Shown: in pieces, positions 2,077 through 13,527 of the stretch
Position numbering within the stretch: position 1 is the stretch's first letter
Layout: each line of letters starts with the position of its first letter
Assembly: GCA_016929435.1 (NCBI GenBank)
Contig: JAFGIV010000022.1
Span: 26,918-90,917 of the forward strand
Length of the DNA: 64,000 nt
Reading direction: 5' to 3'
Source of the DNA: Candidatus Uhrbacteria bacterium
Lineage (GTDB): Bacteria > Patescibacteriota > Patescibacteriia > SG8-24
The notes under the pieces: generated by a model
Databases searched by the model: none
What the model was told of the DNA's origin: nothing
The model's input: the letters and a program-made list of their open reading frames with translations, nothing else
Made by a program: the position numbers and the translations under genes

Positions 2077-2808
2077 CTATCCGGGGGCGATCAGCGTCTC
2101 CCGCAGGCACCGCATCAGCGAATAGTTCGACTGGTAATCCATCCGCTGCGGACCGAGCAGGCCGATGATCCCCTCCCCCGTCTCCGGCGTCCCATAGCGC
2201 AGGACGATGATGCTGGTGCCGCGGCCGAACGGGTTTTCCTCACCGATCAGGACATCGACATCCCGGGTCATCCGCCCCTCCAGCTCGTTCAGGACCTGAT
2301 CAAGCCGATCCAGGGCATGAGTCACCGCAAACAGCAGCTTCTCGTCCCGAAACTCCGGGTGGCGGAAAAGGTTCTCCATGCCGGTCAGGTGGAACCGCCC
2401 GTCGTTCAGGCTGACGAAAACCGTCCCCTTAGTCAGTCGGGCCAGACTTTGGGCGAAAGACAGGGAACGGTCGGCAATTCCGGCCCGAACCGCCTGCTGG
2501 ACCTCAACCAACTGGCGCTCCTGCTCCGCCGACGGCCTGGTTTTGGGTTCCACGAACTCGCTGACGAAATACCGGTAACCAATCTCGGTAGGGATCCGTC
2601 CGGCCGAAGTGTGCGGCTGTCTCAAAAGCCCCTGCTCCTCCAAGACGGCCATGTCGTTCCTGACCGTGGCCGGGGAAACTCCGAAATCGTATTTTTCGAC
2701 GATCGAACCCGAACCGACCGGTTCGGCGGTATCGACGAATTCCCGGACCACTGCCCAGAGAACCTTTTTCCTTCGATTTTCGGCGGAATCACCCATTGAC
2801 ATACGCAT
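2077..2808 (-). CDS. hrcA: heat-inducible transcription repressor HrcA
   Basis: The N-terminus ([73 protein letters not shown]) is the HrcA winged-helix region. A CIRCE element lies immediately upstream. Confidence 0.85.
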
Positions 2809-2814
2809 GAAAGA

Positions 2815-2841
2815 TTAGCACTCCTGACAGGAGACTGCTAA
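2815..2841 (-). promoter_or_regulatory. CIRCE operator (HrcA binding site)
   Basis: TTAGCACTC-ctgacagga-GACTGCTAA is the 9-N9-9 CIRCE inverted repeat (consensus TTAGCACTC-N9-GAGTGCTAA) with one mismatch, located 7 nt upstream of the hrcA start. Confidence 0.85.
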
Positions 2842-2851
2842 TCCTAAAGGG

Positions 2852-2880
2852 ATTATGCCTCCCTTTTTTAAGGCTGTCAA
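2852..2880 (-). promoter_or_regulatory. sigma-A type promoter of the hrcA operon
   Basis: On the minus strand, -35 TTGACA (complement of 2875-2880), a 17-nt spacer and -10 CATAAT (complement of 2852-2857), placing CIRCE just downstream of -10. Confidence 0.5.
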
Positions 2881-2904
2881 GAGGGGCAGAAAATCCCGCA
2901 TCCG

Positions 2905-2948
2905 ATAAAAAAACGGCTTTGGTTATGGGCCCAAAGCCGTCTTTATTC
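2905..2948 (-). terminator. rho-independent terminator, bidirectional in shape, serving the 2974..3417 gene
   Basis: Perfect 10-bp stem acggctttgg/ccaaagccgt with an 8-nt loop. Flanked by an A7 run that becomes a T7 run after the hairpin on the minus-strand transcript. Confidence 0.6.
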
Positions 2949-2973
2949 AAGAAGAAGCCCTTCCTTCTGCCTA

Positions 2974-3417
2974 CTATTCCTCTTCTTCGTCCAATGCCTC
3001 TGCGGACGGTTTCCCGGTGCAGATACCGTCCAGACTGAAATCACATACCGTGTTCACAGGACAATCACGGTCTGACCAACAAAATATCGCGCAGAAGTAT
3101 GGGGCGTTTCCGTAGGCGTCGGATATTACACATTGTTCCTCCCCGGGAACGATGTCGGGGCAGTTTTTTTCGTCGGCAAAACCGTATCGAAAGCACTGGG
3201 TAGAACAAAACCCGTACTCGTCAGAGACGAGTTTTACACATTTCTGGCCACTTTGGTCACCTTCCCCGTTATCACAGTCCCAGTCTGAATTGCAGGACTG
3301 CCCCCACAACGGGGCCTTGTCTTCGTCATCCTCGCCATCCCCCTGACATGCCATCGTCAACACCACCGACATGACCATTACTGCCATTGTCATCATAATC
3401 AACCCCATTTTTCTCAT
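2974..3417 (-). CDS. cysteine-rich secreted lipoprotein, member of a paralogous family
   Basis: Start adjusted to MRKMGLIMMTMAVMVMSVVLTMAC (signal peptide plus lipobox). RBS GGAGGG lies 7 nt upstream. About 16 Cys in 110 mature residues, homologous to the central module of the 4870..5796 product (...YGFCS..C...DCP...IC.G). Confidence 0.7.
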   Translation of the reverse strand: MRKMGLIMMTMAVMVMSVVLTMACQGDGEDDEDKAPLWGQSCNSDWDCDNGEGDQSGQKCVKLVSDEYGFCSTQCFRYGFADEKNCPDIVPGEEQCVISDAYGNAPYFCAIFCWSDRDCPVNTVCDFSLDGICTGKPSAEALDEEEE

Positions 3418-3483
3418 TACACACCCTCCTGTTGGGTTTTGGATGCCGCCGTTCGGCGGACACCATTTGTTAAAGACACCGAA

Positions 3484-3512
3484 ATGTTGACATAAATTTG
3501 GCCATCTGTCAA
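3484..3512 (-). promoter_or_regulatory. promoter of 2974..3417 gene (TTGACA-N17-CAACAT)
   Basis: -35 TTGACA (complement of 3507-3512), 17-nt spacer and a weak -10. The same architecture and downstream leader motif recur in the paralog promoters at 4760-4788 and 5862-5890. Confidence 0.4.
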
Positions 3513-3542
3513 GAGCCAAGAAGGTCAAGCGACAACCCGAAC

Positions 3543-3578
3543 AAAAAAGCGGGCGACCGACGGAAAGTCGGCGCCCGC
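3543..3578 (-). terminator. rho-independent terminator of the M8 protease gene
   Basis: Stem gcgggcgaccgac/gtcggcgcccgc with loop ggaaa, preceded on the + strand by A6, which is a T-run after the hairpin on the minus-strand transcript. Confidence 0.55.
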
Positions 3579-3616
3579 AAAAACAGTCAGAAAGAACAAT
3601 GCGAAGCGGTCAGCGG

Positions 3617-4696
3617 TCAAATTGTCCTGAACGGCAGGCGCCTAATGTCCTGCGTCAGGTCAAATACCTTGCCGACTCCCCGCCTTGAGAAGGCGGTTGA
3701 GAGGCTGAAAACGTCGGCAGCGCCGTAGTTAACGGCGTAACCGATATCCTCCATTGATCCTATGGTGACTATACTCACCGGCTCAAACGCCGATCCGGAA
3801 GTGAATCCGGTCATCGCCTCGACTCCAAAAACCGACTCCCTCCAGTGGCCGTCCTGGGTTCCGGCACCGTAATTTCCGTTCTCCACCGGAACCTTATGGC
3901 CATCATAATACGCCCCACCTACCTGCTCGAAAGCCGCCAACGCCTCGGTCCCAACGAAATGGGTATCAGCCCCCGGGTTGTAAAGGGAGGGGTTTTTGAG
4001 AAGACCCATGGCTTCCCAAAAAATACCGAATCCCAAGGAGTGTCCCATCTCGTGGAAAGCCACATTAGACAGGACGCCCTCCGCCAGCATCTGATCGGCA
4101 TCACTGTCATCTATGACGATGATGCTGACTGCCGGCAGAAGACTCGACCCTCGCCAAACGCAGGGGCCGGAATACCCCAAAATGCCTCCTGCCCCGTCAA
4201 TCGGGGCGATCTGGACAATTATTACGATATCGTCGATATCGTAGTCAATCCGGGGATGGGGTAACCCGTCACAGTATCCGGCCTCTATCGGGCTGGCGGA
4301 AAAACTGGCGGTCGGCAAATCTCCCACGATGATTCGCTCCCAACGAGCGGATGCCTCGTCGAAGGCGGATTCCGCGGACCTGCTGACTTGAGACACGAAA
4401 ATGAAATCAATATCGTATTCCCCACCTATGTCCGTATCCGCATCCGTATCGGTATCCGTATCGGCGTCCGCATCGGCATCAGCGTCAGCATCGGCATCCG
4501 AGCCGCCTAGGTCAACGCAGAACCCGGAAGCGCAGGTCAAATCCCCATCACAAGCCCCGCCTTCCGTGCACTGGCAGCCTTCGCTGCCGATCGCACAACC
4601 CCCTTCTCCGCTGCCCTCATCCTCATCACAGGCCGAAAGGCCAATCACCATCAGAAACATCGCCACGGACAGAATCGTTACGTTCAGGTTTTGCAT
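3617..4696 (-). CDS. leishmanolysin-like (peptidase M8 family) zinc metalloprotease lipoprotein with an N-terminal Cys-rich EGF-like module and a (DA)n/(DT)n linker
   Basis: Start at MQNLNVTILSVAMFLMVIGLSAC (lipobox) with RBS GGAGGGG upstream. HEMGHSLGF matches the M8 HExxHxxGF motif, with a distal His/Met-turn candidate (...DGHWRESVFGVEAMTG). N-terminal module C-x5-C-x-C-x5-C-x5-C-x4-C, then DADADADADADTDTDTDADTD. Confidence 0.6.
   Translation of the reverse strand: MQNLNVTILSVAMFLMVIGLSACDEDEGSGEGGCAIGSEGCQCTEGGACDGDLTCASGFCVDLGGSDADADADADADADTDTDTDADTDIGGEYDIDFIFVSQVSRSAESAFDEASARWERIIVGDLPTASFSASPIEAGYCDGLPHPRIDYDIDDIVIIVQIAPIDGAGGILGYSGPCVWRGSSLLPAVSIIVIDDSDADQMLAEGVLSNVAFHEMGHSLGFGIFWEAMGLLKNPSLYNPGADTHFVGTEALAAFEQVGGAYYDGHKVPVENGNYGAGTQDGHWRESVFGVEAMTGFTSGSAFEPVSIVTIGSMEDIGYAVNYGAADVFSLSTAFSRRGVGKVFDLTQDIRRLPFRTI
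4431..4500. repeat. hexanucleotide microsatellite (GTATCC/GCATCG-like units) encoding the (DA)n/(DT)n linker
   Basis: tccgtatccgcatccgtatcggtatccgtatcggcgtccgcatcggcatcagcgtcagcatcggcatccg. An imperfect 6-nt periodicity lies inside the M8 protease gene. Confidence 0.8.
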
Positions 4697-4759
4697 TTCA
4701 CCCCTCCTATGGGTATGTGGGCGTTCCATTATGGAAACGCCATTTTCAAAGACGCCGAC

Positions 4760-4788
4760 ACCTTAGCGCTGTTTGCGGTTTTTGTCAA
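4760..4788 (-). promoter_or_regulatory. promoter of M8 protease gene (TTGACA-N17-TAAGGT)
   Basis: Minus strand TTGACA aaaaccgcaaacagcgc TAAGGT, followed by the conserved leader GTCTTTGAAAATGGCG plus a hairpin. Confidence 0.5.
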
Positions 4789-4796
4789 GAGATACC

Positions 4797-4838
4797 GAGA
4801 AACAAAAGGCGGATACAGGAGAAAATCCAGTATCCGCC
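4797..4838 (-). terminator. rho-independent terminator of the 4870..5796 gene
   Basis: Perfect 9-bp stem ggcggatac/gtatccgcc with a 13-nt loop, followed on the minus strand by TTTTGTTTCT. Confidence 0.55.
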
Positions 4839-4869
4839 GTAACCAAGCCCGAACCAAAGAACGTGATAA

Positions 4870-5796
4870 TCAGCAGTCTTCCTCTATATCGACAAAGAAA
4901 TCTTCTGTAACCCCCGCGCAAAAGGGATAGTCGCAGAAGCCGTCCCCTACCCAATCACACGGATCGTCGGCACCGCAGGTGCAGGCATCATATACCAAAT
5001 CTTCACATGCGCCGTCGCATCCGCCATCTTCCCCAATATGAGATCCAGCACAAATGCTTATGCCTTCACTCATCCAATAGTGGCAATAACCGTCCGGACA
5101 ATCGGAATCGTCTTCGCATGATATGGAACAGAAGTCTGTACCACCATCGATCAACTCAACGAAGCAACCTTCCGTGCCGCTCCCCATATCTGTGCAATAG
5201 GGATCGAGATCGCCAGAATTGCAGCACTCCTTGGAACAAAACCCGTAACCATCAATCAAGATGCATGTCTGCCCAGCCGTACAATCATCGTTGGATAGAC
5301 AATCGCCTCCCCAATCCCCAGATACCGGTTCCGCATCGCATACTCCGCTACCACAATCGTCACTGTCATCGAACGGACTGGAGACGGCCTGAGAACAGTC
5401 CTCATCGCAGTACCCGTCACCGACCCAGTTGCAGGGGTCATCGGAACCGCAGGTGCAGGCATCATATACCAAATCTTCACAGGCGCCGTAGCACTCGTCA
5501 GCGTCACCGTCAGCATCGGTGTCGGTGTCCGTATCGGTGTCAGTGTCCGTATCGGTGTCGGTATCCGTATCGGTGTCGGTGTCCGTATCGGTGTCAGACC
5601 CCGGATTTCCCGGATCAACGCAACGACCGGAAGCGCACACTAAGCCCGGATCGCATCCACCGCCCGGGGTGCACTCGCACCCCTTATTGCCGACCTGGCA
5701 ATCATCATCCATTTCATCCCCCCGGCAACCGGGTGCAAAAAGGGCCATTATTGCCGCTACCGCCACGAACAACATCCCAATCGATAGTTTCTTCAT
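4870..5796 (-). CDS. cysteine-rich secreted lipoprotein with (DT)14 linker and internally duplicated Cys modules
   Basis: Start at MKKLSIGMLFVAVAAIMALFAPGC (lipobox) with RBS AGGAGGGG. The N-terminal module (CQVGNKGCECTPGGGCDPGLVCASGRCVD) is paralogous to the M8 protein N-terminus. Then (DT)14 DADGDADE; the module YGACEDLVYDACTCGSDDPCNWVGDGYCD is repeated near the C-terminus, and the central module is paralogous to the 2974..3417 product. Confidence 0.7.
   Translation of the reverse strand: MKKLSIGMLFVAVAAIMALFAPGCRGDEMDDDCQVGNKGCECTPGGGCDPGLVCASGRCVDPGNPGSDTDTDTDTDTDTDTDTDTDTDTDTDTDADGDADECYGACEDLVYDACTCGSDDPCNWVGDGYCDEDCSQAVSSPFDDSDDCGSGVCDAEPVSGDWGGDCLSNDDCTAGQTCILIDGYGFCSKECCNSGDLDPYCTDMGSGTEGCFVELIDGGTDFCSISCEDDSDCPDGYCHYWMSEGISICAGSHIGEDGGCDGACEDLVYDACTCGADDPCDWVGDGFCDYPFCAGVTEDFFVDIEEDC
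5497..5598. repeat. hexanucleotide microsatellite (GTGTCG/GTATCC-like units) encoding (DT)n
   Basis: About 17 tandem 6-nt units (gtcggtgtccgtatcggtgtcagtgtccgtatcggtgtcggtatccgtatcggtgtcggtgtccgtatcggtgtc). Confidence 0.85.
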
Positions 5797-5861
5797 CCTT
5801 ACCCCTCCTATTGGGTATATGGGCCTCCCGTTCGGGAGCGCCATTTGTTAAAGACACCGAA

Positions 5862-5890
5862 ATTTTAATGCAAATCGCATATTTTGTCAA
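5862..5890 (-). promoter_or_regulatory. promoter of 4870..5796 gene (TTGACA-N17-TAAAAT)
   Basis: Minus strand TTGACA aaatatgcgatttgcat TAAAAT, followed by the conserved leader TTTCGGTGTCTTTAACAAATGGCG plus a hairpin. Confidence 0.55.
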
Positions 5891-5912
5891 GGGCCCATCC
5901 TGACACGGCCGA

Positions 5913-5951
5913 ACCAAAACAAAAACGGCTTTGAATTATGGCCAAAACCGT
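5913..5951 (-). terminator. rho-independent terminator of the small lipoprotein gene, paralogous to the terminator at 2905..2948
   Basis: Hairpin acggctttg-aattatggc-caaaaccgt, followed on the minus strand by TTTTTGTTTTGG. Near-identical in sequence to the 2905..2948 hairpin (gacggctttgg...ccaaagccgt). Confidence 0.5.
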
Positions 5952-5987
5952 CTTTCTTGAGAAGAAATCCCTCCCTCTCTCCCCTCT

Positions 5988-6161
5988 TTATCTTTCCTCT
6001 TTTTTTTCTTCCTCACCCGCATCAACTCCACCCATCGGAATGCTGACCAAGACCCGACCAGCATCCGACTTGTGTGCCGATGAGGATGAGGAAGTGGCGC
6101 AACCGCCAATTACCATAATCATCGTCAGTATCAACACCAACAAAACCCGAATTTCTCTCAT
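5988..6161 (-). CDS. small lipoprotein (57 aa), not in the ORF track because under 60 aa
   Basis: Minus-strand ATG (complement of 6159-6161) translates to MREIRVLLVLILTMIMVIGGCATSSSSSAHKSDAGRVLVSIPMGGVDAGEEEKKEER with stop TAA. RBS AAGGAG, its own promoter and its own terminator. Confidence 0.5.
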   Translation of the reverse strand: MREIRVLLVLILTMIMVIGGCATSSSSSAHKSDAGRVLVSIPMGGVDAGEEEKKEER

Positions 6162-6198
6162 CTATCTTCTCCTTTGTTTACCTGTTTTGATTGGACAA

Positions 6199-6227
6199 AC
6201 TATAGCGTTTTTAGGCGGTTTTGTCAA
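6199..6227 (-). promoter_or_regulatory. promoter of small lipoprotein gene (TTGACA-N17-TATAGT)
   Basis: Minus strand TTGACA aaaccgcctaaaaacgc TATAGT. This is the fourth promoter of the array with the same -35 and spacing. Confidence 0.55.
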
Positions 6228-6298
6228 GCCTGACAGGCAAAGACCGCCGGCTCTGGCCGACGGCCTTACCTGGCCAAATTCAACCGAAAGAAGTTGGG

Positions 6299-6892
6299 TT
6301 ATCCCTCCTTCTTCGCCCCCCCGGAATGGCTGATGTCGGACAGGAGAACGTTCTCCACGAAAATCCCCCGCGGATAGAATATCCTCTCCAGTTCGTTCTT
6401 GCATTCCACCTCCACGGCATCGCGCTTGGCGGAAACGACATCCTGATAGTCGTAGCGGGAGGCGATCATCCGCATCCGGGAACGGATGGTCGGCCGGACG
6501 ATCTTGGCCACGAAATCCTCCCCTATGTTCTGCCACATGGTCGGAACCTGGTTGATGTCCAAACGGAGCAGTACGGTCCCCTCAATGGATATCTGCTTGC
6601 CGTCCGCCGTCTGGGCGATGATCGGCAGGTCACCCAAGGCCTGCTCGTGTTCCGGGTTGAACTGCCGGCTGATGCCGTACTCCAGGGTCTGGGTATTGAA
6701 AAGCTTGGCCTTCTGCCAAAACGGTATCTTCAGGTGCAGTCCGGGGGTCAGAACCTTCTTCAGCACTCCCCGCCCCAGGTCATATACGCAGGCCACATAC
6801 CCCGGCGGAACGTGAACGAAAAGCCCCTTCAGGACATCCTCCACCACGAAGGAATACATTATCTTGTCCAGGCTGTCTCCGGATCGGGACAT
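6299..6892 (-). CDS. SPFH/Band 7 (prohibitin/HflK-like) domain protein
   Basis: VPPGYVACVYDLGRGVLKKVLTPGLHLKIPFWQKAKLFNTQT... resembles the SPFH domain beta-sheet core. Confidence 0.55.
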   Translation of the reverse strand: MSRSGDSLDKIMYSFVVEDVLKGLFVHVPPGYVACVYDLGRGVLKKVLTPGLHLKIPFWQKAKLFNTQTLEYGISRQFNPEHEQALGDLPIIAQTADGKQISIEGTVLLRLDINQVPTMWQNIGEDFVAKIVRPTIRSRMRMIASRYDYQDVVSAKRDAVEVECKNELERIFYPRGIFVENVLLSDISHSGGAKKEG

Positions 6893-6925
6893 AAGACGGA
6901 CGGTTAGGTTGAATTACGGGCTTCC

Positions 6926-7612
6926 CTATGATTCCCAGCCGGAAATCATGCGCCTGATCCAGAATATGACCATTCCGAAAAACAGGGAAGTCAGGATGAA
7001 AAGGGATTTCACCATCGGCAGGAGCATCAGGACGGCCAAGGTGAACAGGGGGAAGAAGATCATGTACATCACGTCGGCCTTGGTGACCAGGTGCTCGCGC
7101 TTCTTCTGGACGGCATATATCTGGGCGAACAGCACCGCCGCCACTGCCGTTGCCCAAAACCAGCTGCGGGCCGCCAGGTCAAAACCGAAAAAGTCGGTAT
7201 TAACGGCTGCGGGCGGACTGATCCAGGGGTAGATAAGGTCCGCGCCGGTGAAACGGATTCCTGCCATGAAAACCTGGTATATGAGCACCAAAACCAGACC
7301 CTGTACCCCCAAGACGAATACCTTCGACCAATAGCTGACCCTATGGTCCTTCAGTAGTTCCCGAATCTTCTCCTTCCGCCTTACCGGATCGGTCCTGAAC
7401 TCCCGCTCCAGTTCCCCGATTTTCTCGCTTAGCCTCTCATAGCTGGAACGGCTTCGCTCGTCGATGATCGTGAACGGCAAGAGAGCGACGCGCAGGACCA
7501 CGGTCAATTCCACGATAGCCAGCCCCAGGTTACCGAAAGCCGGCCCCTGATACAGCCAAATCAGGGCGTTCAGGAGCGGGACGTATAGCCAATCGTGCCA
7601 AAATGCACCCAT
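6926..7612 (-). CDS. yidC: membrane protein insertase YidC (short form)
   Basis: Polytopic 228-aa protein; N-terminal LIWLYQ...GLAIVELTVVLRVALLPFT and overall topology typical of short YidC/Oxa1. Confidence 0.7.
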   Translation of the reverse strand: MGAFWHDWLYVPLLNALIWLYQGPAFGNLGLAIVELTVVLRVALLPFTIIDERSRSSYERLSEKIGELEREFRTDPVRRKEKIRELLKDHRVSYWSKVFVLGVQGLVLVLIYQVFMAGIRFTGADLIYPWISPPAAVNTDFFGFDLAARSWFWATAVAAVLFAQIYAVQKKREHLVTKADVMYMIFFPLFTLAVLMLLPMVKSLFILTSLFFGMVIFWIRRMISGWES

Positions 7613-7723
7613 AGTGATTTCCTTGACGGAACAGAGAAATTATATCCGAACGGCGCTTGGGAAGCAACATCCAAAAGGCAAGGGGGCGTCTCCTGACGCC
7701 CCCTTCGCCGTGCCGATTCCGGC

Positions 7724-8062
7724 TTACATCTGCCTGTAGGCACCGTTCCGCCAGGCGTCGATCGACTGCCTGAGGAACGGGTTTTCCACGATCTCGTAGA
7801 TCATGGACTTTCCGTTGCGGTTCATGGTGACGATCCGGTACTTGCGGAGAATCCGCAGCTGGTGCGAGACCCGAGAAACGGAATATCCGAACAGCTTGGC
7901 GATCTCGCTGACCGTCAGCCCGTTTTTGGACTGGGCCAGGGCACAGATTATCCTGTATCGGACCTGTCCGGAAATCGCCCGGAGAACGTCATGATTCTTC
8001 CTGAACTTGTCGCTGGCAAGATATTGGCGTATCTTGTCCAGTTCCCTGTCGGTTACTGGCAT
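7724..8062 (-). CDS. ArsR/SmtB-family HTH transcriptional regulator
   Basis: 112 aa with a wHTH core (...RIICALAQSKNGLTVSEIAKLFGYSVSRVSHQLRILRKYRIVTMNRNGK). Confidence 0.65.
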   Translation of the reverse strand: MPVTDRELDKIRQYLASDKFRKNHDVLRAISGQVRYRIICALAQSKNGLTVSEIAKLFGYSVSRVSHQLRILRKYRIVTMNRNGKSMIYEIVENPFLRQSIDAWRNGAYRQM

Positions 8063-8105
8063 GTTTTTGCGTTATTAATTCTTAACATGATTTTTTTGCG
8101 CAAAA
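8060..8105. promoter_or_regulatory. nested inverted repeats overlapping the arsR-like start codon (putative autoregulatory operator)
   Basis: CATGTT-N18-AACATG nested inside TTTTTGCG-N27-CGCAAAA; the outer CATG includes the regulator's start codon. Confidence 0.35.
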
Positions 8106-8263
8106 TTTACGGTAGCAACGAACAGAAAAAGTGTCAAGCGGCAAAAACCTGCGGATATCCCCACCCGCTCCGGACCGCCCTTTTCACGGACCTTGACGGG
8201 ACCGCAAAAAGATGGTAAAAATAGGCAAACCAACGAAACAACCGCACCTTAAAGGAGGCCGAA

Positions 8264-8845
8264 ATGTATGAGGAGCAGAGTGCCAGGGACCTGACATTGG
8301 TCCTGGCCATGGGCCGCATTGGTCCCGAGCAGTTCGGGATCTTCGGACGGGGAAACATAGCGGATGGGGGGCCGCTCACCATCACGGCCACCGTGATAGG
8401 GGCGAGTCACGTAATCAACCTGTCCTACGACGACAGGGAGGTTTTCTCAGAGCTATTCGCATGCGTCGAATTCGCCTGCGATATCCCGCACCTGATCATC
8501 CCCCCGTGGGATGACCGGGGCCGGATTTCCAAAATTGAATTCAGGGCAGATTCCGCTACCCTGAGATATTCCTTCTGCCCCCGACTGCTTTCGGTCGGGG
8601 ACGGACGGAAAGAGACGGAACGGATAGCCGAAGCCGCTGTCCGAGCCGAAAACAACGGCCACGAGTTGGGTCTCATCCACGAGTTCCCTCCCGAACCGCA
8701 CGAAACATGCGGATCACGGACAATCGTCCTTGTCCGTTGGGACAGGGAAAAGAGGGCCATCTCAACCGAGACGGTCCACGAGTACCTCAATGAGGACCGG
8801 GTGGCATTCACCCGGTCGATAATTTCCATCCTCCCGCCGTCATAG
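8264..8845 (+). CDS. hypothetical protein
   Basis: 193-aa ORF with coding-like composition; no recognisable motifs. Confidence 0.35.
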   Translation: MYEEQSARDLTLVLAMGRIGPEQFGIFGRGNIADGGPLTITATVIGASHVINLSYDDREVFSELFACVEFACDIPHLIIPPWDDRGRISKIEFRADSATLRYSFCPRLLSVGDGRKETERIAEAAVRAENNGHELGLIHEFPPEPHETCGSRTIVLVRWDREKRAISTETVHEYLNEDRVAFTRSIISILPPS

Positions 8846-8948
8846 TAGCCCACCACGACACGACGCACCTTCCCCTCAAGCGCCTTTTCGGGCGCTTTTT
8901 CGTTCCCAAAACCCCAACAGGGAGCCGTCAGGCTGCGGGAAGGCGGAA

Positions 8949-9356
8949 TCAGGCCAAGACCTCCTGAATCACCCCGACCACGTCCTTCAGGCTGGAGGAG
9001 TCCTTCAGCAGGTGGCGGCTTATGTTGTGCTGAAATATGCCCTCCTGATTTTTCGTCCCGATGATATTGGTGAAGATGACCACGGGAACGTCCTTTCCCC
9101 AAACGGATTGCCGAAGGCCCTTCAGCATGGCGTAACCGTCCATTACCGGCATTATCAGGTCCAAAAGGACCAGGTCCGGCCTCTCCCTTTCCCCCAAATC
9201 CAGCCCGTCCCTGCCGTTGGCGGCCGTCACCACGTCGAAATCGGATTTTTCCAAAAACCGACGGAGGGGCTTGACCAGGACTTCCTCGTCCTCCACCACC
9301 ATCACCTTCCTCTTCCTTGCGCTCTTGCCGATCTTGACCATACTTCCCGATCCCAT
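8949..9356 (-). CDS. response regulator receiver (CheY-like, single domain)
   Basis: KVMVVEDEEVLVKPLRRFLEKSDFDVVTAANGRDGLDLGERERPDLVLLDLIMPVMDGYAMLKGLRQ... carries the receiver-domain acidic pocket and the phospho-acceptor D in LLDLIMP. Confidence 0.7.
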   Translation of the reverse strand: MGSGSMVKIGKSARKRKVMVVEDEEVLVKPLRRFLEKSDFDVVTAANGRDGLDLGERERPDLVLLDLIMPVMDGYAMLKGLRQSVWGKDVPVVIFTNIIGTKNQEGIFQHNISRHLLKDSSSLKDVVGVIQEVLA

Positions 9357-9476
9357 GATTTACGTGCAGTAATTATACACTGATTCCCGATACCGTAAAT
9401 GCCCGGTTTGGGTGGGGCAAATGCCGTTGGCGGAAAAACCGTTCCGACAGGAGACACCCGCCGAACGGATAGGGTC

Positions 9477-9505
9477 TGGACAACCGAAAAAGGACATGGT
9501 ATTGT
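9477..9505 (+). promoter_or_regulatory. candidate promoter of tRNA-Glu (TGGACA-N17-TATTGT)
   Basis: Hexamers with 17-nt spacing ending ~15 nt before the mature tRNA 5' end. Confidence 0.35.
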
Positions 9506-9520
9506 CCTTTCGGATATTGG

Positions 9521-9598
9521 GGTCCCATCGTCTAGCCCGGTCCAGGACGTCTCCCTCTCACGGAGAAAACAGGGGTTCGAATCCCCTTGGGACTACCA
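9521..9598 (+). tRNA. tRNA-Glu (anticodon CUC), CCA encoded
   Basis: Hand-folded cloverleaf: acceptor GGTCCCA/TGGGACT; anticodon stem TCTCC/GGAGA with loop CTCTCAC; T arm AGGGG-TTCGAAT-CCCCT. Closely resembles bacterial tRNA-Glu (GTCCCCTTCGTCTAG...CAGGGGTTCGAATCCCCT...). Confidence 0.85.
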
Positions 9599-9602
9599 GA
9601 AG

Positions 9603-9632
9603 CACTCACCGAATGGTGGGTGTTTTTATTTT
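9603..9632 (+). terminator. rho-independent terminator after tRNA-Glu
   Basis: Stem cactcacc/ggtgggtg (one G-U) with loop gaat, then TTTTTATTTT. Confidence 0.6.
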
Positions 9633-9694
9633 GTTCGCCTTTAAAAAACCGTGATATAGTTTTTGCGTAATCTAAGGCCTGTTTTCTTGGCTAT

Positions 9695-10081
9695 ATGTCT
9701 ATATCCATAAAAAATATTTTTACCGCCCATAACAATCGAAGCGCTTCTTTTCGGAAAAAAGCTCTTGGTTATTTTCTTGTCTTTCTGGGTGCGTTTCCAG
9801 CGGTTGCATTTGCTTTAGCCTTCGTATTTTGTTTGTTCTTTCCGAATAATCACCTGATGAGGACATACATCATGGTCGATTTTGCTCTTGTCGAAGTCGT
9901 TGGCCCTATGGCATACGTGTTGCTATTGCTGTTGGCTTTGGCTGTGTTTTCTGCGCCGTTTTTCCTGTTGGTCTATATTGGCTTTCTTCTTGTTGGTTCG
10001 AAGAAAAAGAAACCGTCGGGCCAAGCCGTGCTGTTCGCGGTGTTTGCCTATTTTATCTGCTTTTCCGTTTTTTTTTTCTGA
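9695..10081 (+). CDS. small polytopic membrane protein (3-4 TM), AT-rich islet
   Basis: Hydrophobic segments; stop TGA overlaps the next ATG (TGATG), so the two are translationally coupled. Confidence 0.5.
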   Translation: MSISIKNIFTAHNNRSASFRKKALGYFLVFLGAFPAVAFALAFVFCLFFPNNHLMRTYIMVDFALVEVVGPMAYVLLLLLALAVFSAPFFLLVYIGFLLVGSKKKKPSGQAVLFAVFAYFICFSVFFF

Positions 10082-10823
10082 TGACTGAGAATCTGAATAC
10101 GAAATTTGACAGGAAAGTCTCTGGAATGAAAAGTCTTAATACTGGAATCGGGCATCCTATCTTGCCCGAATTTGATGTCATTAACATTTCCAAGTATGTG
10201 AAGTACGATGACATTGTCATTTATCAGGGAGATAGCTACGGGTACAAGTATACGGGTGATGCCTATAGCCAGATCGCCTTGGACCTTGACGTTGAAGGTC
10301 GTACTCTGTTTGTCAGGCGCTCTGAGATGGAGACCTATGTCGTACTCTGTTTGTCAGGCGCTCTGAGATGGAGACCTATTACGATGTCGAAATAGGTCAT
10401 GTGAAGAACAGGTATCCTTTATACCCGGCCGGCACCAAGAAACTGACCATCGAAATCACCGTTCCTGACCTTGACCGCATCATTGTTGAGGGTGGACATG
10501 TCAGCCTAGAGGGTTTGGAAGTGAATGACCTGCGGATTGACCTAAATAAGCGGTTCGTTGAGCTGAAAGGGGATTTGGTGGTGAGAGACGGTTTTGTCCT
10601 GAATGCTAAAGGGGGAGTGGTAGATTTGGAGGGTTCCGCAAAAAACCTAGAAATAAATTCCGGGGACTGTTGGATTGATATGGAGAATTTTACGGCTGAG
10701 ACCGCCTCAATAAACGCCGTTAACACCAGTCGTTTGAACGTTTACGTAACGGAAAACATGGAGGTCATTTCCGGGGTTAATTCTGGGATAGTCAAACATT
10801 TCGATTTCCATCAGGAAGAGTAA
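10081..10823 (+). pseudogene. putative-adhesin/beta-helix-like (DUF2807/DUF4097-like) gene split into two ORFs (10081..10395 and 10368..10823) by a frameshifting 41-bp tandem duplication
   Basis: Removing one 41-bp copy joins ...GRTLFVRRSEMETY to YDVEIGHVKNRYPLY... in frame, giving a single 233-aa protein. Confidence 0.6.
10298..10379 (+). repeat. perfect tandem duplication, 2 x 41 bp (gtcgtactctgtttgtcaggcgctctgagatggagacctat)
   Basis: Copy 10298-10338 is identical to copy 10339-10379. 41 is not a multiple of 3, so the duplication causes a frameshift. Confidence 0.95.
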
Positions 10824-10841
10824 CCGTGTTTGAAAAGACGA

Positions 10842-10953
10842 CGTTCCAGCACGAAAAGCACTACCACCCGCATCCAGCACGGGGAGGCTGTCTCCAATAG
10901 CTGGAGACGGCCTTTAAAGCCTCGAAACAAAAACACCCGAAAGGGTGTTTTTG
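10842..10953 (+). repeat. intergenic palindromic repeat element copy A (~110 bp: hairpin GGCTGTCTCCAatagcTGGAGACGGCC plus terminator CACCCgaaaGGGTG-T5)
   Basis: ~88% identical to copy B (13580..13691); the core palindrome also occurs at 12390..12428. Sits 19 nt after a stop codon. Confidence 0.85.
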
Positions 10954-11118
10954 TGTGCTGGGTTATTTTAATTGCGAAGGGGGGGTGCTTTATGGTATTG
11001 TGCAAATAACATATTTCAATCTAGAAAATAATTTTCGCTTCGTTAGTGGCGGTGCTTTATATCGTTATTCGAAGCTATGTCGAGGGAATTATTAATAATA
11101 TACTTAACCATTGCAAAT

Positions 11119-11724
11119 ATGAAAAATAATATTTTTATTAGAGTGATGTTGGCCACAATGGGCCTCTTTTCTCTATCTTTGTTCTTTTTGGTCTCCAATG
11201 TATACGCATATGTAGCAAGTGGATACACCCGCCCTTCAGGAAACGTAAGTTTTTACTTGCATGGCGCACTGGTGAATGTGGGGTGGCAGGGAGCGATAGA
11301 CAACGCTCGTAGCGAATGGAACGGGGCAGGATCTTCCTTTACGTTCTCTCAAAGCGGTACCGCTACAAGAAGCCCGAGCTTGGTTCAAAGCAGCACGACT
11401 GATGGGTATAACGACATCGGAGCACTTTCGTTGGACCTCAGTTATGTTGGATTTACATCTTCTGTTGCTAGTGGAACATCGATCATTGAAACGGACACAG
11501 CTTATAACTTGGAGAAGTCCTTTGATGTAAATCCGAATATTTATCAGTATGATGTTGAGAGTGTTGCTGTACATGAATTGGGCCACTGGTTACATTTGGA
11601 CGAAACACAGTCGTGGCGATGCTTTGCGTCTCCGCCAAGTATGTGCGGATCAGTTTCTATGGGGAGCACATATATGCGTTCTATAGAATCCGACGACATT
11701 AACGGCATTCAATATATCTATTAA
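11119..11724 (+). CDS. secreted metzincin-like zinc metalloprotease (snapalysin M7 / matrixin M10-like)
   Basis: Signal peptide MKNNIFIRVMLATMGLFSLSLFFLVSNVYA. Zinc motif VAVHELGHWLHLDE, a Cys pair, Met-turn candidate STYM and C-terminal DDINGIQYIY (matrixin DDIxGIQxLY signature). Confidence 0.6.
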   Translation: MKNNIFIRVMLATMGLFSLSLFFLVSNVYAYVASGYTRPSGNVSFYLHGALVNVGWQGAIDNARSEWNGAGSSFTFSQSGTATRSPSLVQSSTTDGYNDIGALSLDLSYVGFTSSVASGTSIIETDTAYNLEKSFDVNPNIYQYDVESVAVHELGHWLHLDETQSWRCFASPPSMCGSVSMGSTYMRSIESDDINGIQYIY

Positions 11725-11725
11725 T

Positions 11726-12337
11726 ATGAAGAAAACAACATTAATTGTAGCGGGATTGGCGGTTATAGTGTCTCTTACGACGCTGATGTACGGACTTGAT
11801 GGCAAAGACCAGGGAGGCAGCGCAACCCCACAGGGCGACGGAACGAGATTGTTGGTCAATGCCTTGCGTACAGAGCCTGATTTTAGGGTTGATACCCTTG
11901 ATTCCAGTATGATAGTTCAGGGGGAGGTGATTGCGGTCGATGAACTGTCTGACCAACCCTTAAGCCACAATACGCGTATAACCATTTCTGTCGACCAGTT
12001 GATTAAGGGGGATGATGTCAGCGAAACGATAGAGGTTTATGCGTTAGGTGGCGGCGGTGTAGAGGTTGTAGGAGATAACGAGAAAATAGGTCTTGTTGCA
12101 GGTGACGTCGGCATTTTCTTCCTTGGTTGGATGCCTGTGTCTGAAGGGTTCTACACATTTTTTGGCGGTTCAAGGGGCGTTTATGTTGAAAAGGACGCAC
12201 ATATTCGTAATTGGGGTGGAAAATCAATTAAAACTGATAGGTTTGTGCGCGAGATTGAGAAAGTGCTAGCTGACCCTGATGATAGAGAACATCAAAAGAC
12301 TTTGGGAGAGATGATCCGTGATAAGGAGTCTGAATAG
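11726..12337 (+). CDS. secreted partner protein P1 (signal peptide; paralogous to 12898..13527)
   Basis: MKKTTLIVAGLAVIVSLTTLMYG signal peptide; starts 1 nt after the protease stop. Shares the core ...V.G.VI......V.V...IKGD....TV...GG with the P2 paralog. Confidence 0.5.
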   Translation: MKKTTLIVAGLAVIVSLTTLMYGLDGKDQGGSATPQGDGTRLLVNALRTEPDFRVDTLDSSMIVQGEVIAVDELSDQPLSHNTRITISVDQLIKGDDVSETIEVYALGGGGVEVVGDNEKIGLVAGDVGIFFLGWMPVSEGFYTFFGGSRGVYVEKDAHIRNWGGKSIKTDRFVREIEKVLADPDDREHQKTLGEMIRDKESE

Positions 12338-12389
12338 AAGGTGTAAGAGGATACTACTTTTTCTTGGGACTACCACTTACATAAAGCGC

Positions 12390-12428
12390 GAGGAGGCCGT
12401 CTCCAATAGCTGGAGACGGCCGTTAGGG
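12390..12428 (+). repeat. repeat element copy C (core palindrome only, perfect 11-bp stem GGCCGTCTCCA atagc TGGAGACGGCC)
   Basis: Identical core to copy A. Lies immediately upstream of, and truncating, the second protease ORF; an in-frame TAG sits inside the repeat. Confidence 0.8.
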
Positions 12429-12430
12429 TC

Positions 12431-12895
12431 TTGTTGGTTACGCCTTTAGGTTCTGCGCTTGCTTGTTCCCAGGATTCATTGTTTTGGACTAGCGCCGTTG
12501 ATAGCGGGGAGATACGTTGGGGCGGTTCCACAAAGTATTCGTGGGAGTGGCAAGATGCGAGGGGTGCATGGAACCAGTTGAGTCCCGTTGATATTCTTCC
12601 TGATACAATATACACATATGAGGATTTAAAAATTTCGGACGTTGACAGCCATTACTTGGGATATTGGGGGGCATACATTCCTTCGTTGGGGACTGATGAT
12701 TTGGAGCTTAATGAATATTTTATGGATGGGGGCTCATACGGAAACAGGGCACATATCGTCTCTCATGAACTTGGCCGTGCTTTAGGTCTCGACCATGTTG
12801 ATGGTTGCGATCATGTGATGGATGATTATCAATATTGCACTTCAGTCACACCGTCATCAAACGATGAATGTAGCTACGATGAATTATGGAACTAG
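12431..12895 (+). CDS. degenerate paralog of the metzincin-like protease (5'-truncated, no signal peptide, zinc-motif H->R); possible pseudogene
   Basis: The ORF begins at TTG with no upstream ATG, and an in-frame stop lies in the repeat just upstream. Motif HIVSHELGRALGLDHVDGCDH is snapalysin-like HExGHxLGLxDH, but the second His is Arg (CGT where His would be CAT). Confidence 0.5.
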   Translation: MLVTPLGSALACSQDSLFWTSAVDSGEIRWGGSTKYSWEWQDARGAWNQLSPVDILPDTIYTYEDLKISDVDSHYLGYWGAYIPSLGTDDLELNEYFMDGGSYGNRAHIVSHELGRALGLDHVDGCDHVMDDYQYCTSVTPSSNDECSYDELWN

Positions 12896-12897
12896 GG

Positions 12898-13527
12898 ATG
12901 AAAGGCAAAATTATAGGCGGGGGGGTACTGCTTCTTGGCGTGCTGGGTATTGGTCTTCACGCTAATGTTTTGAGGGTGCCGGGTATTGTTAACCAGGTTG
13001 GCACTGTTGCAATCGCTAACTTTTCGGATGATGCCGAACTCGTAGGAGCGGCACATAACGTTTTTGTTGGTAAGGTAATAAAGAAACAGGACAGCTTTGT
13101 TGAGGGCAGGCTTGCCTTCACTCCTTATGAGGTTGTCGTCCTTTCCAATATCAAAGGTGATTTAGAAGGAACGGTAACGGTCCTTCAAAATGGGGGGTAT
13201 AAAGATGGGTTCTTGCAAATCTTGCATGATTCCGAATCGCCTGATGGGAGACTTCCATTTCCTGAAGTCAATCAATTATATCTGTTTTCAAGCAGACATA
13301 ATGTTGAGGCCGATGTCCACTACCTTCTTCCTACGATTCATGCTATGGAAAAGGTGAGTTCGAATACAGAATTTGGTGCCCAGGCTGACATTGCCGCCAT
13401 AACCAAGAGTGTTCGCATAGAAGAGCTGAGGGAAGCATATAAAAATGAGGTAGTTCCTTTGGCGGATAGGGAGCACGGTAGTGATTTCAATAGCTACAAT
13501 AAAACTGTACCGCAAAAGATTGAGTAG
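12898..13527 (+). CDS. secreted partner protein P2 (paralog of P1)
   Basis: Start chosen at MKGKIIGGGVLLLGVLGIGLHA (signal peptide), 3 nt after the upstream stop. Similar to P1. Confidence 0.5.
   Translation: MKGKIIGGGVLLLGVLGIGLHANVLRVPGIVNQVGTVAIANFSDDAELVGAAHNVFVGKVIKKQDSFVEGRLAFTPYEVVVLSNIKGDLEGTVTVLQNGGYKDGFLQILHDSESPDGRLPFPEVNQLYLFSSRHNVEADVHYLLPTIHAMEKVSSNTEFGAQADIAAITKSVRIEELREAYKNEVVPLADREHGSDFNSYNKTVPQKIE

What the first reader, a model, noticed from the sequence alone, without database searches (positions are those of the whole stretch)
4431..5598. Hexanucleotide microsatellites encode (DA)n/(DT)n linkers in two secreted proteins: candidate contingency/length-variable loci
The M8 protease carries DADADADADADTDTDTDADTD and the 4870 lipoprotein carries (DT)14-DADGDADE. 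Both are encoded by imperfect 6-nt tandem repeats (4431-4500 and 5497-5598). These resemble the SD-repeat stalks of Gram-positive adhesins. In-frame 6-nt units allow slippage to change stalk length without frameshifting. Antisense ORFs through these tracts, for example the SVSVSV... ORF at 5519..5851, are artefacts of the repeats.
Basis: partly seen in the sequence, partly recalled or inferred. Interest (0 to 1): 0.55.

Follow-up and report, generated by a model that had tools for sequence, protein, structure and literature searches.

The report
Acidic Asp-X repeat tethers in lipoproteins
Two neighbouring secreted lipoprotein genes of an uncultured Uhrbacteria (CPR) bacterium each carry a short, floppy, strongly acidic Asp-Ala/Asp-Thr spacer between the membrane anchor and the working domain; such spacers gain or lose six-base units in related organisms, but nothing shows that these two act as fast genetic switches.

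Summary
Minus-strand genes 3617-4696 (leishmanolysin/M8-type metalloprotease) and 4870-5796 (Cys-rich protein) encode (DA)6(DT)3DADTD and (DT)13DADGDADE at 4430-4498 and 5494-5595.

Each tract lies between an N-terminal lipoprotein signal plus a 6-Cys knot and the globular domain, and AlphaFold2 gives it low confidence. The same layout (lipobox, with or without the knot, then an Asp-X tract of 10-122 residues) heads many unrelated secreted proteins in metagenomes. The best reading is a disordered polyanionic tether.

"Hexanucleotide microsatellite" is overstated. Period-6 DNA identity is no higher than the peptide itself forces, and the longest perfect period-6 runs are 11 and 14 nt. Only the DT tract has an 18-nt super-period, like staphylococcal SD repeats.

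In-frame slippage is real for this class. In 8 clusters of near-identical relatives every internal indel lies inside the tract, and two pairs differ only by (GACACG)2/3 or (GACACG)3/4. The window's DT tract has two (GACACC)2 sites; the DA tract has none.

No orthologue exists to test this locus. An independent assembly gives an identical DA tract but breaks inside the DT tract. Contingency function is unproven. Interest is low to moderate.

The parts
3617..4696 (-). Gene for a 359-aa lipoprotein with a leishmanolysin (M8) metalloprotease domain at aa ~91-359
   Evidence: Pfam PF01457 E=1.5e-9. AF2 pLDDT is above 90 for 91-359. Foldseek top hit is 1lml. A GGAGG ribosome-binding site lies upstream.
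4628..4696 (-). M8 signal peptide ending in lipobox L-S-A-C (Cys23)
   Evidence: Read from the sequence. The lipobox Cys column is invariant in the alignment of module-bearing proteins. No predictor was run.
4517..4597 (-). M8 6-Cys knot, C-x6-C-x-C-x5-C-x5-C-x4-C (aa 34-60)
   Evidence: It matches the same motif in P0020-P0033 and in Nannocystaceae loci L017-L019 and L034. AF2 block-mean pLDDT is 54-78 over aa 31-70, with a beta-hairpin at aa 54-61. No Pfam or NCBIfam family matches it.
4430..4498 (-). DA/DT tract, (DA)6(DT)3 DA DT D: 23 aa, 12 Asp
   Evidence: AF2 pLDDT is below 50 for aa 65-90. The tract is identical in Logan contig L001. It has no adjacent identical hexamers.
4697..4790 (-). 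Conserved upstream region of the M8 gene: TTGACA at 4788-4783, a leader with a hairpin, and the ribosome-binding site
   Evidence: Alignment A1 with the upstream regions of genes 2974-3417 and 4870-5796. Covariation in the hairpin. No Rfam hit.
4870..5796 (-). Gene for a 308-aa Cys-rich exported protein: signal, knot, DT tract, 48-aa Cys module, middle Cys domain, 48-aa Cys module
5725..5796 (-). Signal peptide ending in A-P-G-C (Cys24), a less canonical lipobox
   Evidence: Read from the sequence. Invariant Cys column in alignment A6.
5620..5700 (-). 6-Cys knot of the Cys-rich protein (aa 33-59)
   Evidence: Motif found by scan. AF2 pLDDT is 83-92 for aa 31-60.
5494..5595 (-). DT tract, (DT)13 DA DG DA DE: 34 aa, 18 acidic residues. 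It has an 18-nt super-period GAC ACC GAT ACG GAC ACC and two (GACACC)2 sites.
   Evidence: AF2 pLDDT is 42-47. Logan contig L049 ends at window 5568, inside this tract.
5797..5890 (-). Promoter-like site (TTGACA-17-TAAAAT, 5890-5862) and conserved leader of the Cys-rich gene
4401..4766 (+). Antisense ORF through the DA tract (SVSASVSV...): a by-product, not a gene
   Evidence: It overlaps the homology-supported M8 gene. The only Pfam match is far below its cutoff (DUF6264, 14.8 bits against 31).
5519..5851 (+). Antisense ORF through the DT tract (SVSVSV...): a by-product, not a gene
   Evidence: It overlaps the N-terminus of the Cys-rich gene. No Pfam hit.
2974..3417 (-). Neighbouring 147-aa lipoprotein gene. 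It is a paralogue of the middle domain of the Cys-rich protein and shares the same leader, but it has no knot and no D-X tract.
   Evidence: BLASTP 39% identity over 83 aa, E=1e-9. Leader identity.
5988..6161 (-). Fourth small (57-aa) lipoprotein gene of the cluster, with its own TTGACA promoter-like site

Best explanation
The two tracts encode intrinsically disordered, polyanionic (Asp-X)n tethers. Each protein is exported with a lipoprotein-type signal. After lipidation of Cys23/Cys24 it would sit on the outer face of the cell membrane. That this CPR bacterium has a single membrane is inferred from general knowledge, not tested here.

From the N-terminus come a short acidic stretch, a 27-residue disulfide knot, the Asp-X tract, and then the functional domain. 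The tracts are 23 and 34 residues, about 8 and 12 nm if fully extended. The functional domain is an M8 zinc protease in one gene and Cys-rich modules in the other. The tether holds the domain away from the membrane and lets it move. Selection acts on the peptide character (alternating Asp and a small residue, no fold), not on a DNA unit.

The lipobox, optional knot and (D-X)n leader is a module found on many unrelated secreted proteins. Because the peptide is repetitive, the DNA contains short perfect hexamer runs and 12-24-nt super-units. Replication slippage occasionally adds or removes in-frame units there. Tether length therefore drifts between close relatives, mostly as a tolerated by-product. 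It is a slow VNTR-like polymorphism, not a rapid switch.

Shown: the architecture, the low model confidence of the tracts, module sharing, the codon structure, and slippage in relatives. Inferred: lipidation, surface location, the spacer function, and neutrality of the length changes.
For: Architecture: signal with Cys, knot, tract and domain, read from the sequence.

Structure prediction: for M8, pLDDT is below 50 at aa 65-90 and above 90 at aa 91-359. For the Cys-rich protein, the knot scores 83-92 and the DT tract 42-47.

Tract not part of the enzyme: M8 homologues (best 45-46% identity; the genome hits are mostly Gemmatimonadota) align only to aa ~94-359, and none of their fetched loci has a D-X tract.

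Module sharing: 51 of 147 fetched proteins carry a D-X tract. The first tract starts at a median residue 54, and lengths are 10-122 with median 32. It lies right after a lipobox, with or without the knot, ahead of unrelated Pfam families such as GH8, GH18, CAP, DUF1566, trypsin and PA.

Natural control: gene 2974-3417 has the same domain and leader without knot or tract.

Codon analysis: period-6 identity equals or is below the shuffled-codon expectation, and perfect period-6 runs are at most 14 nt, here and in four homologues.

Slippage in relatives: all 8 internal indels among members of 8 near-identical clusters fall inside the tracts, and 7 of 17 informative comparisons differ in length. 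At the DNA level the changes are (GACACG)2/3 and (GACACG)3/4, with identical flanks.

Precedent: about half of E. coli outer-membrane lipoproteins have a disordered N-terminal linker of more than 22 residues whose length, not sequence, matters (bioRxiv 10.1101/2021.01.05.425367).

A DsbA-like gene at 48423-49112 fits export of disulfide-rich proteins.
Against: - No experiment or predictor confirms lipidation. APGC is a weak lipobox.
- Low pLDDT is only a proxy for disorder.
- The homologue set was partly recruited through the repeat itself, so how common the module is remains biased.
- The strict D-X alternation, rather than any disordered sequence, suggests an additional specific role (cation binding or modification) that a plain spacer model does not explain.
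- The Logan contig break inside the DT tract, with no repeated 31-mer there, could mean read-level heterogeneity, that is, faster variation than I assume.
Confidence: 0.68

Rival explanations
1. Contingency loci. The tracts would be hypermutable hexanucleotide repeats whose frequent in-frame slippage generates selectable variation in stalk length within a population.
For: Every unit is in frame. The DT tract has an 18-nt super-period, a sign of past block duplication. Homologous tracts differ by single hexamers between otherwise identical contigs. Staphylococcal SD repeats are polymorphic and have been proposed as contingency-like (PMC3324548). Logan contig L049 stops 27 nt into the DT tract although no 31-mer is repeated there.
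Against: Perfect period-6 runs are only 11 and 14 nt, and the DA tract has no adjacent identical hexamers. There are only about 4 imperfect copies of the 18-nt unit, and low-copy SD arrays were reported stable. The DA tract is identical in an independent assembly. 10 of 17 comparisons of near-identical relatives show no length change, and the changes seen are small, mostly 1-2 dipeptides and at most 5. No phenotype is plausible for a change of about 0.7 nm.
Confidence: 0.12
2. Cation- or surface-binding tract. The alternating Asp side chains would chelate Ca2+/Mg2+ or bind mineral or host-cell surfaces, so the tract would be a functional binding element. This could hold in addition to the spacer role.
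For: Half of all tract residues are Asp: 12 of 23, and 17 Asp plus 1 Glu of 34. The strict D-X alternation is conserved across many unrelated proteins, with X mostly T, A, S or G. A generic spacer would not need that.
Against: No match to bacterial TSP3 or other Ca-binding repeat families in Pfam or NCBIfam. The model shows no ordered structure. Tract length varies about tenfold between proteins.
Confidence: 0.14
3. Glycosylated mucin-like stalk. Thr residues of the DT repeats would be O-glycosylated, as Ser of SD repeats is by SdgA/SdgB, to stiffen the stalk and protect it from proteases, including the adjacent M8 enzyme.
For: The DT tract offers 13 regularly spaced Thr residues. There is an analogy with SD-repeat glycosylation (general knowledge, not tested here).
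Against: No glycosyltransferase was found among the window ORFs of 200 aa or more that were scanned. The DA part cannot be O-glycosylated, yet it occupies the same position. X is freely A, T, S or G in relatives.
Confidence: 0.05
4. Assembly or annotation artefact. The tracts would be mis-assembled low-complexity sequence, or the coding strand would be wrong.
For: Repeats are a classic source of assembly error. The Logan assembly breaks in the DT tract.
Against: The DA tract and 2.6 kb around it are reproduced base for base by an independent assembler. Both reading frames stay open through the tracts and continue into homology-supported domains. Dozens of relatives have the same architecture.
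Confidence: 0.02

Closest known systems
Ser-Asp (SD) repeat region of staphylococcal Clf/Sdr MSCRAMM adhesins
   Same: Both are Asp-containing dipeptide repeats that act as a spacer in a surface protein. [quoted passage not shown] Both change length in frame (PMC3324548).
   Different: The dipeptide here is D-T or D-A, not S-D. The tracts have 4-5 units, whereas ClfA has 63 in the strain studied. They lie at the N-terminus next to a lipobox and a Cys knot, not between the ligand-binding domain and an LPXTG wall anchor. The NCBIfam MSCRAMM models score 7-12 bits against cutoffs of 999-2500. No Sdg-type glycosyltransferase was seen in the window.
Intrinsically disordered N-terminal linkers (tethers) of bacterial lipoproteins, e.g. 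E. coli RcsF, NlpD, Pal
   Same: A disordered segment of more than 22 residues directly downstream of the lipidated Cys and upstream of the globular domain, where length matters more than sequence. The position and predicted disorder are the same here.
   Different: Those linkers are not dipeptide repeats and serve Lol-dependent sorting to an outer membrane. A CPR bacterium is thought to lack an outer membrane and Lol (general knowledge). Here a disulfide knot precedes the linker.
Simple-sequence contingency loci of Haemophilus, Neisseria and Campylobacter (general knowledge)
   Same: Repeat-mediated slipped-strand change in genes for surface proteins.
   Different: Classical loci use long perfect tracts whose unit number switches expression on or off by frameshift or promoter spacing, at high rates. 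Here the tracts are imperfect and in frame, and they change only length.
Leishmanolysin (GP63), peptidase family M8
   Same: The catalytic domain: Pfam PF01457, the HExxH + His + Met-turn, and the fold match to 1lml.
   Different: The protein is bacterial and small (about 270-aa domain). It has an N-terminal lipobox, knot and D-X tether instead of the propeptide and GPI anchor of GP63. Other bacterial M8 homologues lack this leader.

Membership tests
Simple-sequence contingency locus | Long perfect or near-perfect tandem tract of a short unit | tested here: not met
   The longest perfect period-6 runs are 11 nt (DA) and 14 nt (DT). Period-6 identity of 0.76/0.74 is not above the shuffled-codon expectation of 0.77/0.79.
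Simple-sequence contingency locus | Repeat number polymorphic within or between populations of the same strain or species | tested here: inconclusive
   The DA tract is identical in the Logan assembly of SRR13394437. The DT tract is not spanned, because contig L049 ends at window 5568. No orthologue was found elsewhere. Homologous tracts in other organisms are polymorphic.
Simple-sequence contingency locus | Unit change switches expression or reading frame | tested here: not met
   The unit is 6 nt (or 12-24 nt), always in frame. All indels seen in relatives are multiples of 6 nt.
SD-repeat stalk of MSCRAMM adhesins | Asp-containing dipeptide repeat encoded by an 18-nt degenerate unit | tested here: inconclusive
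   The DT tract meets it: TRF period 18, 93%, 4.5 copies, and lag-18 P=0.002. The DA tract shows no significant super-period. The dipeptide is D-T/D-A, not S-D.
SD-repeat stalk of MSCRAMM adhesins | Location between the ligand-binding domain and a C-terminal LPXTG wall anchor; match to the MSCRAMM family models | tested here: not met
   The tracts are N-terminal (aa 67-89 and 68-101), after a lipobox. No LPXTG is seen in either sequence. NCBIfam ClfA/ClfB/SdrC/SdrD score 7-12 bits against cutoffs of 999-2500.
SD-repeat stalk of MSCRAMM adhesins | Dedicated glycosyltransferases (SdgA/SdgB type) that modify the repeat | tested here: inconclusive
   None was found among the 30 scanned window ORFs of 110 aa or more. 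The rest of the genome is not available.
Bacterial lipoprotein with a disordered N-terminal tether | Signal peptide ending in a lipobox [LVI][ASTVI][GAS]C | tested here: inconclusive
   M8 has L-S-A-C, which is canonical. The Cys-rich protein has A-P-G-C, which is atypical. The Cys column is invariant in the 17-sequence alignment. No LipoP/SignalP tool was available and there is no biochemical proof.
Bacterial lipoprotein with a disordered N-terminal tether | Unstructured segment of more than ~22 residues between the lipid anchor and the globular domain | tested here: met
   pLDDT is below 50 for aa 65-90 of M8, and 42-47 for the DT tract, with confident domains on either side.
Peptidase M8 (leishmanolysin) | Family HMM above the curated cutoff; HExxH, third His and Met-turn; metzincin fold | tested here: met
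   PF01457 scores 37.5 bits against a cutoff of 21. HEMGH, GHW and EAM align with 1lml. Foldseek top hit 1lml, E=8e-10, probability 1.00.
Bacterial thrombospondin type-3 / Ca-binding Asp repeats | Match to the repeat family profile (DxDxDGxxDxxD-type) | tested here: not met
   No Pfam or NCBIfam hit of that kind at E up to 1.

The most novel reading that the evidence does not exclude
The lipobox, 6-Cys knot and (Asp-X)n leader would be an undescribed, horizontally exchanged surface-display cassette. It would be shared between CPR bacteria and Myxococcota or 'Deltaproteobacteria', grafted onto many different effector domains, with its own conserved promoter and leader in this genome. In-frame hexamer slippage would tune the tether length. 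In an episymbiotic CPR cell this would set how far a host-directed protease can reach. Three observations fit this reading: the atypical GC3 of the four-gene cluster (0.53-0.63 against 0.76-0.82), the Gemmatimonadota-like catalytic domain, and the Nannocystaceae-like knot.
Probability: 0.15. Interest if true: 0.5.

Novelty: new variant of a known kind. Interest (0 to 1): 0.3.

Why it matters
The finding gives a concrete, checkable picture of how an uncultured CPR bacterium displays a protease and Cys-rich proteins on its surface. It also documents an N-terminal module (lipobox, small disulfide knot, Asp-X tether) that Pfam and NCBIfam do not describe, although it heads many unrelated secreted proteins in environmental bacteria.

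It also shows when a peptide repeat should not be read as a DNA microsatellite: the codon-level test separates the two. Even so, very short perfect hexamer runs of 2-4 units do slip between natural populations. None of this changes current understanding of repeats or lipoproteins, so the value is mainly for annotation and method.

Tried and rejected
- **Orthologue search for repeat-length comparison.** I ran two word-based protein searches with the full proteins, one with the repeat removed, an exhaustive HMMER search, and scans of GTDB genomes and JGI metagenomes. The best M8 relatives are 45-46% identical and lack the leader. The Cys-rich protein has only module-level relatives.
- **Exact-sequence look-ups**. 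Only Logan contigs from one run (SRR13394437) carry this DNA. They are identical where they overlap the window, and none spans the DT tract.
- **Glycosylation machinery.** I scanned 30 larger window ORFs against Pfam and found no glycosyltransferase.
- **Targeted diversification (DGR-like).** There are no VR/TR-type long near-repeats near the genes.
- **Known RNA element in the conserved leaders.** Rfam gave nothing relevant at E up to 1. Folding z-scores of -0.4 to -1.1 are not significant.
- **Ca-binding TSP3, EGF or other known families for the knot and tract.** No Pfam or NCBIfam hit. The weak TafF and MSCRAMM hits are driven by low complexity.
- **'Synonymous codons deliberately scrambled to prevent slippage'.** The lower-tail P values are only 0.04-0.14, so I do not claim it.
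- **Literature searches** for DT/DA repeats, Uhrbacteria lipoproteins and the accession numbers gave nothing relevant.
- **Taxonomy of the module-bearing relatives.** Most carry no source name. Only some are labelled Deltaproteobacteria or Nannocystaceae/Paraliomyxa.
Full report
**What is there**

Four small genes lie head to tail on the minus strand between hrcA-grpE and an SPFH-YidC pair. Each has its own promoter-like site and ribosome-binding site, and terminator-like hairpins follow two of them:
- 2974-3417, 147 aa
- 3617-4696, 359 aa
- 4870-5796, 308 aa
- 5988-6161, 57 aa

All four begin with a hydrophobic signal that ends in a Cys.

The 359-aa protein is a leishmanolysin-type (M8) zinc protease:
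- Pfam PF01457 gives E=1.5e-9, 37.5 bits against a cutoff of 21.
- An AlphaFold2 model has pLDDT above 90 over aa 91-359.
- Its best PDB match is 1lml (E=8e-10).
- HEMGH, the third His and the Met-turn align with 1lml.

The 308-aa protein has this order of parts:
- signal peptide
- knot
- DT tract
- a 48-aa Cys module
- a middle Cys-rich domain of about 90 aa
- a second copy of the 48-aa module

The module occurs up to 11 times per protein in 77 clusters of a 1.8-billion-protein library and has no Pfam family. The middle domain is paralogous to gene 2974-3417 (39% identity, E=1e-9).

Exact-sequence look-ups assign the contig to a 'Candidatus Uhrbacteria bacterium' MAG, a member of the CPR (GrpE is MBN1585548; the contig is 98.9 kb).

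**Checking the observation**

The tracts are real and lie within 1-3 nt of the stated coordinates:
- M8 aa 67-89: (DA)6(DT)3 DA DT D, window 4430-4498.
- Cys-rich aa 68-101: (DT)13 DA DG DA DE, window 5494-5595.

TRF reports period 6 with 76-77% matches for both tracts. For the DT tract it also reports period 18, with 93% matches and 4.5 copies. No other Asp-X run exists in any frame of the 64 kb.

The antisense ORFs 4401-4766 and 5519-5851 are the reverse reading of the repeats. They overlap homology-supported genes, and no Pfam family reaches its cutoff for them, so I agree that they are artefacts.

**Is the DNA a hexanucleotide microsatellite?**

I compared each tract with versions in which synonymous codons were shuffled among positions coding the same amino acid, or drawn from the window's housekeeping codon usage.
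- Period-6 identity is 0.76 for DA, against 0.77-0.80 expected. For DT it is 0.74, against 0.79.
- The longest perfect period-6 runs are 11 and 14 nt, against 16-22 expected.

The six-base periodicity is therefore entirely what the peptide imposes. At the DNA level the tracts are, if anything, less repetitive than they could be. The lower-tail P values are only 0.04-0.14, so I do not claim active scrambling.

The DT tract does have a real 18-nt super-period, GAC ACC GAT ACG GAC ACC. Lag-18 identity is 0.83, with P=0.002 against within-tract shuffles and P=0.07 against background codons. That points to past duplication of three-dipeptide blocks. The DA tract shows no significant super-period and no two adjacent identical hexamers. 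The DT tract has two (GACACC)2 sites.

Four homologous tracts from other organisms behave the same way. Two of them have a 24-nt super-period.

The 18-nt unit matches staphylococcal SD repeats. [quoted passage not shown]

**What the tracts are part of**

The M8 homologues reach at most 45-46% identity; those found in sequenced genomes are mostly from Gemmatimonadota. They align only with aa ~94-359, and none of the 34 fetched loci has an Asp-X tract. The first ~93 residues are therefore an added leader.

That leader matches the N-termini of many unrelated proteins. It consists of the signal, a lipobox Cys, a short acidic stretch, a knot and the Asp-X tract. The knot has the pattern C-x6-C-x-C-x5-C-x5-C-x4-C, with consensus CxxGxEGCxCTxGGxCDxGLxCxSxxCV. 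The proteins sharing it carry GH8, GH18, CAP, DUF1566, trypsin, PA and other Pfam families, or none.

Of the 147 proteins fetched, 51 have a tract:
- It starts at a median residue 54.
- It is 10-122 residues long, median 32.
- X is T, then A, S and G in falling order of frequency.

This set was partly recruited through the repeat, so its frequency is biased. The position of the tract is still informative.

In Nannocystaceae, including the isolate Paraliomyxa miuraensis, the same knot occurs three times in tandem in small lipoproteins. There it is followed by Gly/Ser/Thr-rich tails instead of Asp-X.

In both models the tract has low confidence while its neighbours are confident. For M8, aa 65-90 score below 50. 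For the Cys-rich protein, the knot scores 83-92 and the DT tract 42-47.

The simplest reading is a disordered polyanionic tether between a lipid anchor and the working domain. Fully extended, the tracts would span about 8 and 12 nm. This corresponds to the disordered N-terminal linkers of more than 22 residues found in about half of E. coli outer-membrane lipoproteins. For those linkers length matters and sequence does not (bioRxiv 10.1101/2021.01.05.425367). Lipidation, surface location and the spacer role are inferences.

**Do such tracts change length?**

No orthologue exists in the protein collections, GTDB representative genomes or JGI metagenomes.

The only other assemblies of this DNA are Logan contigs from one run (SRR13394437):
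- L001 equals window 2387-5001 base for base, including the DA tract.
- L049 equals window 5568-10327 and ends 27 nt inside the DT tract, although the window has no repeated 31-mer there; the longest repeated k-mer is 29.

The break in L049 could reflect read heterogeneity, low coverage or sequencing error. It is a lead, not evidence.

I therefore tested the class of tract. In eight clusters of near-identical proteins (86-100% identity) that carry such tracts, all 8 internal indels lie inside the tract and none lies outside. Seven of 17 informative comparisons differ in tract length, by 2, 4 or 10 residues.

Two pairs are otherwise identical proteins, and their DNA shows the mechanism:
- L043 and L044 have (GACACG)2 where L045 has (GACACG)3. 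The flanks are identical at 592/592 and 534/534 bases, and the gene has 3 SNPs.
- L046 has (GACACG)3 where L047 and L048 have (GACACG)4. The other 795 bases are identical.

One allele of each pair was recovered by two independent assemblies, so these are real polymorphisms. In-frame hexamer slippage therefore occurs in these tethers even at perfect runs of only 2-4 units, and it is the fastest-changing feature of the proteins.

Ten of the 17 comparisons, many at 95-100% identity, show no change, and the steps that do occur are small. This is VNTR-like drift, not the rapid switching of classical contingency loci.

By this yardstick the window's DT tract, with two (GACACC)2 sites and an 18-nt super-unit, is a plausible slippage substrate. 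The DA tract is a poor one.

**Verdict on the interpretation**

It is partly supported.
- Right: the tracts are linkers in exported proteins; the SD-repeat analogy holds, including the 18-nt unit; length can change in frame; the antisense ORFs are artefacts.
- Overstated: 'hexanucleotide microsatellite' and 'contingency locus'.
- Different from SD stalks: the tracts sit at the N-terminus beside a lipobox and a Cys knot; there is no LPXTG; the MSCRAMM models score far below their cutoffs; the scanned window ORFs include no glycosyltransferase.

**Rivals**

A cation- or surface-binding role for the strictly alternating Asp residues is not excluded and could coexist with the spacer role. No known Ca-binding repeat family matches. 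O-glycosylation of the DT tract is possible but unsupported. An assembly artefact is excluded for the DA tract and unlikely for the DT tract.

**Novelty and interest**

Acidic dipeptide stalks, disordered lipoprotein tethers and in-frame repeat slippage are all known. What is not catalogued is this particular leader (lipobox, 6-Cys knot, Asp-Thr/Ala tether) and its occurrence in a CPR genome.

In this genome the four-gene cluster has atypical codon usage: GC3 is 0.53-0.63, against 0.76-0.82 in housekeeping genes. Its parts resemble Gemmatimonadota and Myxococcota proteins, which suggests horizontal acquisition.

I rate it a new variant of a known kind, with low to moderate interest.

Noticed in passing
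window 3418-3500, 4697-4790, 5797-5890 (minus strand): The three larger lipoprotein genes share a conserved upstream region. It has TTGACA, then a ~70-nt leader with the core TCGGTGTCTTTAACAAATGG (20/20 identical at 3463-3482 and 5841-5860), a hairpin whose stem differs in sequence but stays paired in all three copies, and a CCC stretch that can pair with the GGAGGGG ribosome-binding site. Rfam has no match and the folding z-scores are not significant. It may be a shared regulatory leader.
   Followed up: partly
window 2974-6161: The four-gene lipoprotein cluster is compositionally atypical: GC3 is 0.53-0.63, against 0.76-0.82 in the housekeeping genes tested (SPFH, YidC, GrpE, HrcA, DnaE and others). 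The M8 domain is closest to Gemmatimonadota proteins and the knot to Nannocystaceae proteins. This suggests horizontal acquisition.
   Followed up: partly
window 9600-13600: A low-GC (~0.44-0.47) island starts right after tRNA-Glu (9521-9598). It holds a 123-nt direct repeat at 10830-10952 and 13567-13689 (86% identity), with a third 57-nt copy at 12369-12425 that contains a terminator-like palindrome. It also holds an M10-like metalloprotease ORF at 11077-11724 (GC3 0.44) and several ORFs with no Pfam hit. It looks like an integrated element.
   Followed up: no
window 10298-10379: A perfect tandem duplication of a 41-nt unit lies in the low-GC island. Logan contig L049 ends inside it.
   Followed up: no
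window 4873-5022 and 5347-5493 (minus strand); DNA repeat 4931-5034 / 5405-5508: A ~48-aa Cys module, CxGxCxxxxYxxCTCGxxDPCxWxGDGxCDxxC...FDDSxDC, occurs twice in the Cys-rich protein (the DNA copies are 82% identical). It is found in 77 protein clusters elsewhere, up to 11 tandem copies per protein, and has no Pfam family. Its DGxCD...DDSxDC part recalls LDL-receptor class A Ca-binding modules; that resemblance is from memory and was not tested.
   Followed up: partly
L017 1271-1876, L018 9785-10519, L019 9851-10441, L034 9746-10363: Nannocystaceae and 'Deltaproteobacteria' genomes, including the isolate Paraliomyxa miuraensis, encode small lipoproteins with three tandem copies of the same 6-Cys knot. 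These are followed by Gly/Ser/Thr-rich tails rather than Asp-X tracts.
   Followed up: partly
window 48423-49112 and 49109-50275: A DsbA-like thioredoxin gene is followed by a gene that fuses a type IV secretion pilin-like domain with an SLT transglycosylase domain. The DsbA fits export of the many disulfide-rich proteins encoded nearby.
   Followed up: no
window 5568 (end of Logan contig L049): An independent k=31 assembly of run SRR13394437 stops 27 nt into the DT tract, although the window sequence has no repeated 31-mer there. The same assembly runs straight through the DA tract. This could be read-level length heterogeneity or simply low coverage.
   Followed up: partly
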